64,000 nucleotides of DNA from Octopus vulgaris. Its lineage: Eukaryota. The translations under genes were made by a program, and so were the position numbers. This document shows, piece after piece, positions 15,466 through 60,654 of the stretch. Each line of letters opens with the position of its first letter. The stretch's first letter is position 1. The stretch lies in contig OX597821.1 in assembly GCA_951406725.2 (NCBI GenBank), forward strand, positions 107,756,001 through 107,820,000, given 5' to 3'. The notes beneath the pieces were generated by a model that was not told where the DNA came from, ran no database searches, and was given only the letters and a program-made list of their open reading frames with translations.

Positions 15466-15692
15466 TATAAGAGGAATGACCACTGGGTGGATTCCTTGTA
15501 TGCTAAAGGTAGACCTCATATGGTCTGACCACTAAGAAAATTTCTTCTCAAGAAAATTCGACAAACGCCAGAACTTAAAGCGAGCAAGACAAACGCTTTA
15601 CGTTCTGATGTTTGCCGAATTTTCTTGAGAACAATCTTATGGGGTCTACCTTTAGCATATTAGGAATCCACCTTGTGCTCATTCCTCTTATA
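15466..15692. repeat. Fold-back inverted repeat (hairpin 1) beside (TA)n
   Basis: TATAAGAGGAATGA..GGTGGATTCCT..TATGCTAAAGGTAGACC and TTCTCAAGAAAATTCG..AAAGCG each have reverse complements in the right half. Confidence 0.9.
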
Positions 15693-17382
15693 TGTATGTA
15701 ATATAATTTTCAGATTTTTTTCAATATGCTAGGCCAATGGTTAAAATTGATATTAATTTAATCAATATCAATTTTTACCCTTATTATTTAAATTTATATA
15801 TGTGTGTGTGTTTGTCTCCAGCCACCGCTTAGCAAATGGTGTCGGGTTGTTTACGTCCCCATACTTTAGTGTTTCAGCAAAAGATCGATAAATGAAGTAC
15901 CACACTTAACAAAAAATAATAGTTATGGGGTCAAATTCATTCGACTAAAATATCCTTCAAGGTGGTGCCCCAGCATGGCCGCAGTCTAATGACTGAAACA
16001 AGCACAAGAAAACGCACAAAAGATTCCTGGAACATAAATGGCAAAAGCTATGAAGGATTACGTCGTGTTGAATTTTCGAAATTTTTTGGCGTATTTTTAC
16101 GGTTTCCCTTCAAGATCGTATTTGCCGAGTGCGTGTTTTCTGGTTCCTGTTCATGCCTATGCCCACCCCTACCGCTAGCCGTTCCAGATTATCAGTTAGA
16201 CATTTAGTAATGTCAACAAGTGCAGCAATGACTAAGGCTAGAAAATGTATATTATTCATCTTGATAATGAAATTCTAGTTTTCGAAACAGCTGGCCATAG
16301 ATATTATCTTTCGCACACATTCCCATGCACGCGTATACACATGCACACAGACGTGTGAGTGTGAACGTGTGTATTTGTGTGTTCCGTTTTACATATGGAT
16401 ACATACATAGATATGTAAATATATATATTTGGGTATAAATATATATATATGTATTTATATACGTATATACATGTATATATTTGTGTGTATATTTATATCT
16501 GTGTGTGTGTGTGTGCGCGCGTGTATATATATATGTATGTATACATATGTACATATATACCAAGATAGTAGTAGTAGTAGTAGTAGTAGTAGTAGTAGTA
16601 GTAGTAGTAGTAGTAGTAGTAGTAGTAGTAAAAGGAGAAGAAGAAGAAGAAGAAGAAGAAGAAGAAGAAGAAGAAGAAGAAGAAGAAAACAGCAAAGTAT
16701 GGAGTCGTAAGCAAACCAACTCCAATTGTCAAGCGGTGATGGCGGCGCTGAAACAGAGACGCGCGCGCGTGCGCATATATGTGTGTATATATTCATGATG
16801 ATGATGATGATGATAATGATGATAAAGACCATGATGATGATGATTGTTGATGATTATAGTATAAAGAAATATGGTTACGATCTTCTGTCTGCAAATACGT
16901 ATTTCTGCGTTCGAATCCACTGCGCACTGCTCTGAATAAGTAAGGGGTTCTTCAGCCATAATTTAGGGTCCACCCGTGCCTTGTGACGGAAATTGGATAA
17001 ACGGAAAGTGCGGAAATCTGTCGTCTGGATTGCTTCCGTTCTGGGAATGTAAGTAGATCAAATTCCAACAGCAATAACAACAACTACTGTGACAACAACC
17101 TCATGGGCAGGCACATCATCATCATCAACATCATCAACAGCAAAAACAAGGGTGTCGCTGGCTGGTACGTTGGTGTGTTGGAAACCATCTTCTGGCTCTG
17201 TTGATTGCGTGTAATATCAAACAAACAAACTCACAAACAGTCAACAAAATTTATTGATTGGTGTGATTTACTGCGTTGGCTTCAAACGCAATTTGGAAAA
17301 GAAAAATGCCGATGTAATAATCGCTGCAAACTGTTGAAGATTGGTGAAGAGAACAGCACCGTGTCTTGATGAAAGTTAACTG

Positions 17383-18150
17383 TGGTCTGCCTTGCTTGAA
17401 GCCCCGAAACGGTCTGCCTTTGCTTGATGGCCTGTCTGTCTTGCTTGAGGGCCCGTCTACCTTACTTGAGGATTCGAAACGGTCTGCCTTGCTTAATTTC
17501 TCGACGTGGTCTGCTTTGCTTGAGGGCTCGAAACGGTCTGCCTTGCATGATGGCCCGTCTGTCTTGCCTGAGGGCCGTATGCCTTACTTGAGGGCTCGAA
17601 ACGGTCTACCTTGCTTGAAAGCCAAAACAGACTGCCTTGCTTGAGGGCCTGTCTGCTTTGCTTGAGTGTCCGAAACGGTCTGCCTTGCTTGAGGGCTCTA
17701 AACAGTCTGCCTTACTTGAGGGCCCCAAACGATCTGCCTTGCTTGAGGGCCCAAAACGGTCTGTCTTGCTTAAGGGCCCCAAACGGTCTGCCTTACTTGA
17801 GAGCCCGAAACAGTTTGCCTTGCTTGAGGGCCCATCTACTTTGCTTGGTGCCCTAAACGGTCTGCCTAGCTTGAGGGCCCCTCTGCCTTGCTTGGTGCCT
17901 GTCTGTCTTGCTTGAGTGCTTGAAGTTGTCTACTTGAAGGCTCGAAACGTTCTGCCTAGCTTGGTTGCTCGAAGTGGTCTACTTTGCTTGAGTGCACGCA
18001 ATGTTCTACCTTGCTTGAGTGCCCGAAACGGTCTCCCTTGCTTGTGGACCCGTCTGTTTTGCTTGAGTGCCCGAAATGAGAGAGCCTGTCTGCTTTGCTT
18101 GTGTGCTCAAAGCGGTCTGCCTTGCTTGAGTGCACGGAGCAGTTTGCCTC
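17383..18150. repeat. GC-rich minisatellite with 27-bp and 21-bp units (CTTGCTTGAGGGCCCGAAACGGTCTGC)
   Basis: About 30 diverged tandem units with no unique spacers. Confidence 0.9.
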
Positions 18151-18544
18151 GTGTTAGACGCCATACTGTTTAACTAGGGTGAAACGGGCGCGAGTTTTAG
18201 AATATTCAAGAAACCATATCTCGCCATAACTTGACACTGATTGGTCGTTTTATAGATTAAATCCGTAAAAATGTAATGACATATACATGATTATTCCGCG
18301 GTTGGGGTTCGAATCCCTATAAGAGTAACTGCAACGATCCCAGCAACAGCCACAACGTTCACAGTACCCAGAGCATTAGCAACAACCACAACTCCGATAG
18401 CAACAACAATATAAACCACAACAGCAATCATAACTTCTGAATCACGGTTTCTTTCCCCATTTTCGCCCTAGATTCTCTAAAAAGGTCATGTCCATTGCTA
18501 TCCCTTTTCTGACTAACCCATGAAAAACTAATACTAAATTAATG

Positions 18545-18932
18545 AGCAAGCATGGCTGTGCTGAGAACCTTGCTTCTCAATCACATGGTTCCGGGTTCAG
18601 TCCCCTACGTGGCACCTCGAGTAGGAGTTTTCTAGTATAGCCCTGAGCCGCCTAAGGCCTTGCGAGCGGATTTGGTAGACGGAAAGCTAAAGGACGGCCT
18701 CTGTGTGTGTGTATGTGTGTTCGCTTATGTTTTTGTTTGTCTCTTCACAATCGTTTACAAAGAGTGTTGGTATGCTTACGTGCCCGTACTCTAGCGGTTC
18801 GCTAAGAAGGGAACGATAGAAAAAGGACCAGGCTTAGAAACAAATACTGGGGTCGATTTGTGTGGTTAAATCCTTCAAAGCGGTGCCCCAGAATGGCCGC
18901 AATCCAATGACCGAAACACGTAAAAGAAGATA
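18545..18932 (+). mobile_element. SINE family A, diverged
   Basis: CACATGGTTCCGGGTTCAGTCCC head, GGATTTGGTAGACGGAAA body and family tail. Confidence 0.85.
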
Positions 18933-58299: not shown

Positions 58300-58524
58300 T
58301 ATGTAATATTTTAAAAATCTTTATATCATTAAAACATTTCAGCTGCAAAGCTGCGGTCATACTGAAGCACCACCATTCACTGAGCTATACTATTATTTGA
58401 AACCTCCTCTGATATGTGAAATTTGGTCAATGAGGGAGTTTGATGCCTTAACCCTCATCTGTGTTTCCTGCCGTGAGGTAGGCACGTCTGGAACCCTTGA
58501 TTGGAAGAGGTCCTTATGTTTTTT

Positions 58525-58892
58525 AATCTTTTATCTTGTTTCAGTGATTTGACTGAGGGTATGCTGGAGCACCGCCTTCATTCAAGCAAATCGACCCCAA
58601 GACTTATTTTTTATCAGCCTAGTTCTTATTCTATCGGTCTGTTTTGCCGAACCGCTAGGTTACGGAGACGTATACACACCAGCATAGGTTGTCAAGCGAT
58701 GTTCGGGGGAGAAACACACACACACATATACATACGACGGGCTTCTTTCAGTTTCCGTCTACCAAATCTACTCACAAGGCTTTGGACGGCCCGAGGCTAT
58801 AGTAGAAGACACTTGCCCAATGTGCTATGCAATGGGATTGAACCCGGAACCAAGTGGTTGGTAAGCATGCTACCTACCACATATTCACTCCT
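58525..58892 (-). mobile_element. SINE family A, diverged
   Basis: Family A tail, body and head. Confidence 0.85.
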
Positions 58893-60183
58893 GATATACA
58901 TATATATTTCTCTCCCTCTCTCTCTCTCTCTGTATGTATGTATATATATACACACACACACACACACACACACACACACACATATATATATATATATATA
59001 TATATACACACATACATACATATATATATATATATATATATATATATTACATTCATACACACACACATATATGTATATGTAAACCTATGTACGTGCGTGT
59101 TTGTGTGTATGTACACATAATTTAAATAATTTAGATATGTACACACACACACACACACACACATGTTTATATACACTCTCTCGCGCGACTTTATTGTCCC
59201 TTTTAGCTTTTCTTTCTTAGGCTACAGTCCCCAGTGACACACCAACGGTTCATAGAAGATCTGAACTCACAACCTATGGCTACATTAATCAAACACATAA
59301 ACACGCGCATTTTATTCTTCTTCATTTCGTTTTCCAAAATCTATTTAACCTTTTGCTATTTCTTTTTCATCATTTTTTTCACCCTGTATTCATTCTCTTC
59401 CCCGGGACCCTCCCCCCACCACACCCACACATATACATATATACATATAGACATACGTTCAAATACACATGCGCATATATGCAATCAAATATATACACGG
59501 TGTCAAGTTTAATCGTTGCCTGCACGTGCGTGTGTGTATATTGTTCTGAGAGAAGTCACGTGTAACGACACTCCCTCCTGATTGGATACTGTAATTTTGC
59601 GATTGAAATGAGAACATATCATACATAAAGCATATGTTTTTCTCTCTGTTTTTCCTTTTTTTTTTGTTTGTTTTAATTTGTATTTTAGACACATACACGC
59701 GTGCATATATATACATATATCCGTTTGTGTGTGTGTGTGTGTGTGTGTGTATGTGTGCGGATTCGTTTGGATATGTATATATATATATATATATATGTAT
59801 GTGTGTGCACGCGCGCATGTTTGTGTGGTTGTATGTATGTGGGCGTGTGGATCTGTTTCAATATGTGTGTGCGTGTGTGTGTGTGTGTTTATATAATGCA
59901 ACGTTTATCATTTTGTGGAAGTTTTTTCATAATTTTTTTTTCAAATGTTAGAACTTAAGCTGTTCCCCATTCACTAATGCATATATGCACATACGCACAC
60001 ACACACACATACACACACACACACACACACACACACACACACACGTGCAGGCGCGGACGCAAACATATGTATTATACTTACATACATGTATCTATATGTA
60101 TATGTTACACATAATGTATTTGCATACATGTATATATACGCATACACACACACACACACACACACACACATATATATATATGC

Positions 60184-60654
60184 ATATAGGAATTTTTTGC
60201 GTAGTATGATAAAAAAACCGAGGCTGTATAGATATTAGAGCATTTATAGATAGAAGGTCTTACAGCTGTTTCTAAGATATTTATTAATTATATCCCTTCA
60301 TCGGAGACGGTGTGAGAGGAAAATTAAGTCATAGTTAGTTTAGATGTGATACAAAATAGAGAGTGAGGTGGAGGAAAGGAAATAGATGTAAGATATGTAT
60401 GGGTATTGAAGTTGTAAATCCATTTTTAGGCATAATAGTATATATGCAACTAATTTATTTCCTCCATCTCACCCTCTATTTTGTATCACATCTAAACTAA
60501 CTATGACTTAACTATTCTCTCACACCGTCTCCGATGAAGGGAAATAATTAATGAATATCTTAGAAACAGCTGTAAGACCTTCCATATATAAATGCTCTAA
60601 TATCTACACATTCTTGTTTTTTTTTAAATCTCATTACGCAAAAAATTCTTATAT
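60184..60654. repeat. Fold-back element (hairpin 6) with a hammerhead-like motif in each arm
   Basis: About 190-bp inverted arms. Plus arm 60527-60578 reads GTCT-CCGATGA-AGGGAAAT..ATATCTTA-GAAAC-AGCT-GTA-AGAC; the mirror copy is at 60257-60308 on the minus strand. Confidence 0.9.

What the first reader, a model, noticed from the sequence alone, without database searches (positions are those of the whole stretch)
15466..60654. Six mutually unrelated long fold-backs, all in or beside (TA)n tracts
Seen: hairpins at 15466-15692, 32456-32664, 42684-42935, 50987-51256, 57632-57726 and 60184-60654. I see no shared TIR sequence or distinct TSD, and several have a short unpaired AT-rich extension on one side. 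Two contain hammerheads, two sit next to hammerhead-bearing units, and the Penelope RT remnant at 26578-27208 also has inverted ends. Inference: a diverse population of Penelope-derived non-autonomous fold-back retroelements targeting (TA)n. At about one per 10 kb they could be a large source of dsRNA for ADAR editing or endo-siRNAs.
Basis: inference. Interest (0 to 1): 0.75.

Follow-up and report, generated by a model that had tools for sequence, protein, structure and literature searches.

The report
Penelope retrotransposon fold-back insertion scars
The six hairpins are the clipped tail ends of six different Penelope-type jumping-gene families, likely folded back anew each time a copy is inserted; this is a known footprint of these elements, though it could be a large, untested source of double-stranded RNA in this animal.

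Summary
All six fold-backs are real, mutually unrelated and multi-copy. Each is an inverted pair of 5'-truncated 3' ends plus a family-specific one-sided tail (medians 44-148 nt) ending at (TA)n. Three are ends of protein-coding Penelope-like elements (PLEs): 50987 and 60184 Hydra-clade-like, 42684 Neptune/Nematis-like. Three (15466, 32456, 57632) are 350-520-nt non-coding tandem monomers with a type I hammerhead motif (retrozymes). Five of six families carry a hammerhead; in the window only two copies retain it. They are not fold-back elements that move as units: only 6 of 1,435 copy pairs share a centre junction, and arm lengths vary freely. Target duplications of at least 8 nt occur at 19 of 25 non-microsatellite sites (control 12 of 354). 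That excludes TA-duplicating MITEs, and about 10% arm divergence excludes assembly artefacts. The layout matches the published PLE inverted-copy-plus-tail footprint, and this scan noted it earlier on other DNA of this genome. ADAR or siRNA use is untested. Verdict: new members of a known kind.

The parts
15464..15800 (+). F15: inverted insertion of a ~520-nt non-coding hammerhead monomer; tail-less arm 15464-15593, sense arm 15594-15692, tail 15693-~15800. The hammerhead lies further inward and is absent from this copy.
32409..32664 (-). F32: inverted insertion of a ~353-nt hammerhead monomer; tail 32409-32458, sense arm to ~32569, tail-less arm ~32560-32664
42684..42991 (+). F42: doubly truncated 3' end of a Neptune/Nematis-like coding PLE; tail-less arm 42684-42835, sense arm 42832-42935, tail 42936-42991; (TA)n on both sides
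50987..51329 (+). F50: doubly truncated 3' end of a Hydra-clade-like coding PLE; tail-less arm 50987-51153, sense arm 51156-51256, tail 51257-51329
51009..51072 (-). Predicted type I hammerhead in the F50 tail-less arm (core intact, stem III mismatched; U at the cleavage position); approximate bounds
51171..51233 (+). Predicted type I hammerhead in the F50 sense arm (core mutated); approximate bounds
57632..57800 (+). F57: very short inverted insertion of a ~509-nt hammerhead monomer; arms 57632-57673 and 57682-57726, tail 57727-~57800
60184..60790 (+). F60: doubly truncated 3' end of a second Hydra-clade-like coding PLE; tail-less arm 60184-60449, sense arm 60447-60654, tail to ~60790
60527..60580 (+). 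Predicted variant hammerhead (CCGATGA core) in the F60 sense arm; mirror copy at about 60256-60308 on the minus strand; approximate bounds
26572..27200 (-). Separate Penelope/Poseidon-type remnant: N-terminal coding piece 26628-27145 with ~35-nt inverted ends, next to (TA)n; not the parent of any of the six

Best explanation
Each hairpin is two inverted, 5'-truncated copies of the 3' end of one of six unrelated repeat families (three protein-coding Penelope-like elements, three non-coding hammerhead monomers), likely produced afresh at each insertion by a Penelope-type endonuclease/reverse transcriptase. Inferred steps: the GIY-YIG endonuclease nicks both strands of AT-rich DNA about 10-12 nt apart, mostly in (TA)n. 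Each 3'-OH primes cDNA synthesis on sense RNA at one of two family-specific start sites, and the stretch between them becomes the one-sided tail. Both cDNAs stop early and are joined through short microhomology or a small filler. The non-coding monomers would borrow the same machinery in trans.
For: One-sided tail in 28 of 28 F42 loci read unfiltered and in 104 of 107 filtered rows of all families. Centre junction shared within 1 nt in 6 of 1,435 within-family pairs; spans run from 131 to 1,300 nt, and the same ends frame 4.3-kb (L218) and 3.2-kb (L281) coding insertions. TSD of 8-20 nt, median 12 including 1-3 nt of microhomology, at 19 of 25 sites vs 12 of 354. Either arm can be the longer one (tail arm 33, tail-less 62, ties 9). 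Junction overlap of at least 2 nt in 29 of 107 vs 11% in simulation; gaps of at least 5 nt in 39% vs 14%. Flank/element microhomology at the F42 tail-less start averages 2.9 nt vs 0.56 nt in 13 copies. Arms of one copy share 424 of 1,218 variants (35%) vs 18% between copies. RT plus C-terminal GIY-YIG lie directly upstream of the F50, F60 and F42 arms; the F42 arm follows its endonuclease in 26 of 29 loci. A type I hammerhead reads toward the tail in 5 of 6 family references, with 0 of 60 shuffles reaching each score. Literature: inverted truncated copy plus tail and (TA)n bias (PMC8557442); 8-10-bp TSDs (PMC3846280 passages); a PLE protein nicks and extends both strands, with the tail lying between two RT start sites (PMC11167929).
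Against: No autonomous partner shares sequence with F15, F32 or F57 arm ends, so trans-mobilisation rests on the footprint alone. Tails (family medians 44-148 nt) are longer than the 30-40 bp in print. PMC11167929 reports RT starts without homology to the cut DNA, whereas F42 shows short microhomology, at a boundary I set myself. Shared variants within a copy fit a single-template snap-back or later gene conversion equally well. Loci are top BLAST hits, not a random sample. The 107 rows come from 138 after dropping 31, two insertions appear twice, and the filter demanded one tail-less arm (L164 has two tails). Pfam support for the decayed ORFs is weak (GIY-YIG E=0.4; nothing significant). F42 has no detectable hammerhead. 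F50 and F60 contribute only 2 and 6 rows.
Confidence: 0.87

Rival explanations
1. Same PLE origin, but the second arm is made by snap-back: one truncated cDNA folds on itself and copies itself (the self-priming idea).
For: Arms within a copy are more alike than between copies (35% vs 18% shared variants; 97.7% over 977 aligned nt in L218). F42 truncations cluster at a short palindrome, 10 of 40 truncated arm ends at inward positions 134-139. Self-priming was proposed in PMC3846280 (passages).
Against: A cDNA primed at the tail tip would always make the tail arm the longer one; 62 of 95 show the reverse. A cDNA primed at the tail-less start lacks the tail it would have to copy, and 33 of 95 have the tail arm longer.
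Confidence: 0.2
2. Self-propagating non-autonomous fold-back retroelements: the hairpin itself is transcribed and reinserted as a unit.
For: All 40 scored F42 hits to the window hairpin were near full length; a few junctions are shared (6 pairs).
Against: Those F42 copies have different junctions. An arm-plus-tail query returned hairpins of 220-400 nt as well as unpaired arms. Arms continue into coding or tandem-monomer sequence.
Confidence: 0.05
3. TA-duplicating Tc1/mariner-type MITEs or assembly fold-back artefacts.
For: Inverted ends flanked by TA; no contig from four public runs spans a whole hairpin (uninformative for high-copy repeats).
Against: Asymmetric tails, variable length, TSDs of 8-20 nt, RT/GIY-YIG linkage, and arms only 87-95% identical within a copy. 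A true MITE in the same window (23129-23565) behaves differently: 40 of 40 scored copies near full length, 30-bp TIRs, exact 8-bp duplications at 5 of 10 loci read.
Confidence: 0.02

Closest known systems
Inverted 5'-truncated insertions with tail of EN+ Penelope-like elements (Craig et al. 2021, PMC8557442, sections 6, 11, 15 and passages read; Arkhipova et al. 2013, PMC3846280, passages read)
   Same: Inverted truncated copy, one-sided tail, partial tandems, variable TSD near 8-10 bp, (TA)n targeting, hammerhead near the 3' end.
   Different: Tails here have family medians of 44-148 nt vs 30-40 bp; both arms are often under 200 nt, giving MITE-like stubs.
Hydra-clade PLEs (PMC8557442 section 11)
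   Same: F50 and F60 parents: RT then C-terminal GIY-YIG, CxCx5C linker, CxxC and C-x-H around the E/N residues, no CCHH, hammerhead, (TA)n sites. The three homologues found for the F50 endonuclease (38-40% identity) carry RWK and DKT.
   Different: N-terminal motifs not seen in the truncated copies themselves; hammerheads are variants (U at the cleavage position in F50; CCGATGA core in 20 of 30 F60 copies); no phylogeny was run.
Neptune/Nematis-clade PLEs (motifs as described in PMC8557442 section 6)
   Same: F42 parent: C-terminal GIY-YIG with Cx4CxxC linker and a CCHH-type pattern; (TA)n and AT-rich targets.
   Different: No hammerhead detected; Neptune vs Nematis not resolved.
Metazoan non-LTR retrozymes (Cervera and de la Pena 2020, PMC7229834, passages; Li et al. 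bioRxiv 10.64898/2026.07.22.740005, parts 1-2 of 5 read)
   Same: F15, F32, F57: 350-520-nt non-coding head-to-tail monomers with one type I hammerhead each.
   Different: Here most copies are truncated inverted pairs with the PLE tail; self-cleavage and circular RNA not shown.
Poseidon_Ac in vitro (Frangieh et al. 2024, PMC11167929, main text read)
   Same: Both strands nicked and extended at AT-rich DNA; two RT start sites bounding the tail; hammerhead cut site not at the insertion end.
   Different: Different clade; start sites here lie in non-coding sequence; short microhomology seen for F42.

Membership tests
EN+ Penelope-like elements | RT plus GIY-YIG endonuclease in one ORF | tested here: met
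   F50, F60, F42 parents by motif reading of decayed copies and homologues P0001-P0003 for F50; Pfam weak. Not present in F15, F32, F57 (longest ATG ORFs 84, 38, 67 aa).
EN+ Penelope-like elements | Inverted 5'-truncated copy with one-sided tail | tested here: met
   28 of 28 F42 loci; 104 of 107 filtered rows
EN+ Penelope-like elements | Variable short target-site duplication | tested here: met
   19 of 25 vs 12 of 354; the 25 sites are 19 F42, 3 F15, 3 F32, none from F50, F57 or F60
EN+ Penelope-like elements | Type I hammerhead in the pLTR | tested here: inconclusive
   Found in F50 and F60, not found in F42; cleavage untested
Hydra clade (F50, F60) | C-terminal EN, CxCx5C linker, no CCHH, CxxC and CxH around E/N | tested here: met
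   read against PMC8557442 section 11
Hydra clade (F50, F60) | N-terminal RWK and DKT motifs | tested here: inconclusive
   Absent from the 5'-truncated F50 copies L280-L284; present in the three F50 homologues; F60 not tested
Hydra clade (F50, F60) | Placement in an RT phylogeny | not tested
Neptune/Nematis clade (F42) | C-terminal EN with Cx2-5CxxC linker and CCHH | tested here: met
Non-LTR retrozymes (F15, F32, F57) | Short non-coding head-to-tail monomer with a type I hammerhead | tested here: met
   F15 continues head-to-tail in 18 of 30 loci; F32 L073 and F57 L138 tandems; hammerheads, core CTGANGA in at least 31 of 43, 13 of 18 and 11 of 14 copies
Non-LTR retrozymes (F15, F32, F57) | Self-cleavage and circular RNA intermediate | not testable with these tools
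   No raw RNA run listed
Tc1/mariner-type MITE | Fixed symmetric TIRs, fixed length, TA duplication | tested here: not met
   Asymmetric tail, variable length, 8-20-nt TSD; contrast with a true MITE
Self-propagating fold-back element | Dispersed copies share the same centre junction | tested here: not met
   6 of 1,435 pairs

The most novel reading that the evidence does not exclude
PLE fold-back stubs from many Hydra-, Neptune- and retrozyme-type families are the main source of the long near-perfect hairpins behind the exceptional A-to-I hyper-editing reported for octopus, and their arm and junction statistics give a genome-scale readout of two-strand priming by Penelope enzymes, including trans-mobilised retrozymes.
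Probability: 0.3. Interest if true: 0.6.

Novelty: new member of a known kind. Interest (0 to 1): 0.33.

Why it matters
Repeat annotators would file these stubs as MITEs or unknown palindromes; they are retroelement scars. Six unrelated families with one footprint in 64 kb supply natural data on the poorly understood Penelope insertion reaction. They also give structural evidence that retrozymes use PLE machinery. Porath et al. 2017 (PMC5625713, passages read) found octopus exceptionally rich in near-perfect genomic dsRNA potential and in hyper-editing, but left it out of the repeat-class analysis. If this genome is an octopus (inferred from size and contig count, recalled, not tested), these stubs are a testable candidate source.

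Tried and rejected
Rfam at gathering thresholds: 0 hits; by E-value the 150 of 266 rows shown were sub-threshold and microsatellite- or hairpin-driven, with no hammerhead family among them. My first hammerhead scan returned no structured hit (probably a faulty fuzzy pattern) and was replaced. A C29 array with ~4.4-kb spacing looked like tandem full-length F42 but is a duplicated low-complexity host segment carrying one hairpin. A search for a re-ordered hammerhead in F42, prompted by earlier notes, found none. No A>G excess in arm variants (A>G 0.021 vs T>C 0.022 per base), so no sign of fixed ADAR editing in these families. No RNA holder was listed. Logan contigs cannot span or rank high-copy hairpins; one DNA contig matched 50990-51071 exactly and ran on past the left end, but may come from the assembled sample. 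No parent was found for F15, F32 or F57. Literature searches for a PLE-hairpin source of cephalopod editing and for twin priming in PLEs listed no paper that addresses it; only listings were seen for most, and supplements were not read.
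Full report
Observation. The window lies in a 2.8-Gb genome of 227 contigs; an octopus-like identity is my recalled inference and was not tested. Each hairpin is a dispersed family: 637-2,887 first-look candidates, 40 scored per search; these are not copy numbers. The arm ends of the six are mutually unrelated (best E=0.06).

Shared anatomy. Flanks of the fetched loci show one layout in all six families: one arm starts at a fixed TA-rich point, and the other runs on into a family-specific tail that ends at the target. 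For F42 (42684) 28 of 28 loci read unfiltered have the tail on exactly one side. Mapping loci to family references gave 138 hairpin rows. I dropped 31 (3 segmental duplicates, and rows with an arm under 20 nt inward, no arm starting at the boundary, or a gap of 40 nt or more), leaving 107 rows, about 105 insertions since L230 and L243 appear twice. Of these, 104 have a tail; family medians are 114, 44, 56, 77, 91 and 148 nt for F15, F32, F42, F50, F57 and F60. The filter favours one-sidedness; L164 has two tails. (TA)4+ lies within 40 nt of an end in 74 of 104 rows vs 16% of random window intervals. At 25 non-microsatellite sites, 19 show a flank duplication of at least 8 nt (median 12, including 1-3 nt of microhomology) vs 12 of 354 mismatched pairs; these sites come from F42, F15 and F32 only.

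The hairpin is not the mobile unit. Spans range from 131 to 1,300 nt and only 6 of 1,435 within-family pairs share a junction within 1 nt. A genuine MITE in the same window (23129-23565) gave 40 of 40 near full-length copies with 30-bp TIRs and exact 8-bp duplications at 5 of 10 loci read. Arms within a copy are 87-95% identical, unlike an assembly fold-back.

Parents. [quoted passage not shown] F50 (50987): walking inward reached a second RT and endonuclease with the same motifs; L281 is a 3.2-kb copy with the same tail and inverted end. The three homologues found (38-40% identity) carry RWK and DKT. These motifs match the Hydra clade as described in PMC8557442 section 11. F42: the arm follows a C-terminal endonuclease with Cx4CxxC and a CCHH-type pattern in 26 of 29 loci, Neptune/Nematis-like. 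Pfam support for these decayed pieces is weak or absent, and no tree was built. F15, F32 and F57 loop back into their own tails as monomers of about 520, 353 and 509 nt (18 of 30 F15 loci) without long ORFs.

Hammerheads. A type I motif reads toward the tail in the F15, F32, F57, F50 and F60 references, with 0 of 60 shuffles reaching each score, and there is no comparable hit on the opposite strand. F42 has none, in any strand order. The F50 motif has U at the cleavage position and F60 has a CCGATGA core in 20 of 30 copies. Predicted cut sites lie 114-268 nt from the tail end of the references, so they do not define the insertion end. Cleavage is untested.

Mechanism. Shown here: the anatomy, target bias, TSDs, junction diversity, and either arm being longer (tail arm 33, tail-less 62, ties 9). 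Also shown: junction overlaps of at least 2 nt in 29 of 107 (11% in simulation), gaps of at least 5 nt in 39% (14%; some may be alignment stops at indels), 2.9 vs 0.56 nt of flank microhomology at the F42 tail-less start in 13 copies, and more variant sharing within than between copies (35% vs 18%). From the literature: a Poseidon protein nicks and extends both strands of AT-rich DNA, and the tail lies between two RT start sites (PMC11167929, main text). Inferred: two target-primed cDNAs started at the two sites, truncated, and joined. Snap-back self-priming (PMC3846280, passages) remains a minority rival, since neither single-start version fits both arm-length classes. F42 ends cluster at inward positions 134-139 (10 of 40 truncated arms), which is unexplained. 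No partner was found for the three monomers.

The 26578-27208 remnant is an internal N-terminal Penelope/Poseidon-type piece whose ~35-nt inverted ends resemble sequence flanking other copies of its family (L190); it is not a parent of the six.

dsRNA. The genomic hairpins fold stably (about -70 to -290 kcal/mol with 30-nt flanks), but expression, editing and small RNAs could not be tested. I saw no host exon among the longer ORFs by eye, so intronic transcription is unknown. Arm variants show no A>G excess. PMC5625713 (passages) reports octopus as rich in near-perfect dsRNA potential and hyper-editing without assigning repeat classes, and notes heavy Penelope editing in a lizard. Searches listed no paper linking PLE fold-backs to cephalopod editing; most were seen as listings only.

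Comparison and verdict. The layout is the published PLE footprint (PMC8557442), and earlier notes of this scan describe it elsewhere in this genome (none near this window). What is added is the assignment of six families, longer tails, and the junction and TSD counts. New members of a known kind; interest 0.33.

Noticed in passing
window 23129-23565: True MITE: 437 bp, 30-bp TIRs, internal telomere-like hexamer run, exact 8-bp TSD at 5 of 10 loci read (hAT-like by TSD length, recalled), 40 of 40 scored copies near full length.
   Followed up: partly
window 17412-18149: Degenerate tandem array of ~27-nt units that resemble a minimal hammerhead (core-like word, short GC stem, GAAAC, GTC).
   Followed up: no
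F42 family, inward positions 134-139: Hot spot of 5' truncation (10 of 40 truncated arms) at a short palindrome; could be an RNA 5' end or a joining site. L165 has 155-nt tail-less tandem repeats.
   Followed up: partly
window 3043-3498, 5040-6507, 13476-14061, 32729-33486, 54701-56293: Very abundant repeats in tandem and inverted arrangements, possibly further PLE-type units.
   Followed up: no
window ~42500-42550 (-) and ~57475-57505 (-): Degenerate minimal hammerhead-like motifs next to two of the hairpins.
   Followed up: partly
window 6940-7798: Mariner-like transposase remnant in two frames (named from recall).
   Followed up: no
window 10737-11446, 43865-44617, 51786-52208: LINE-like 3' coding remnants (named from recall).
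   Followed up: no
L213-L216 (G000:C29, ~29.18 and 30.29-30.32 Mb): Tandem ~4.4-kb duplicated segment with long Thr/Val- or Pro-rich low-complexity frames, carrying one F42 hairpin along.
   Followed up: partly
L217:4114 (+): 949-codon open frame starting with an endonuclease-like region, probably a young LINE (named from recall).
   Followed up: no
L218 ~3700-3950: Asn-rich (AAT)n stretch between RT and endonuclease of the F60 parent, reminiscent of the N-rich inserts described for Adineta Penelopes in PMC3846280.
   Followed up: no
   Followed up: no
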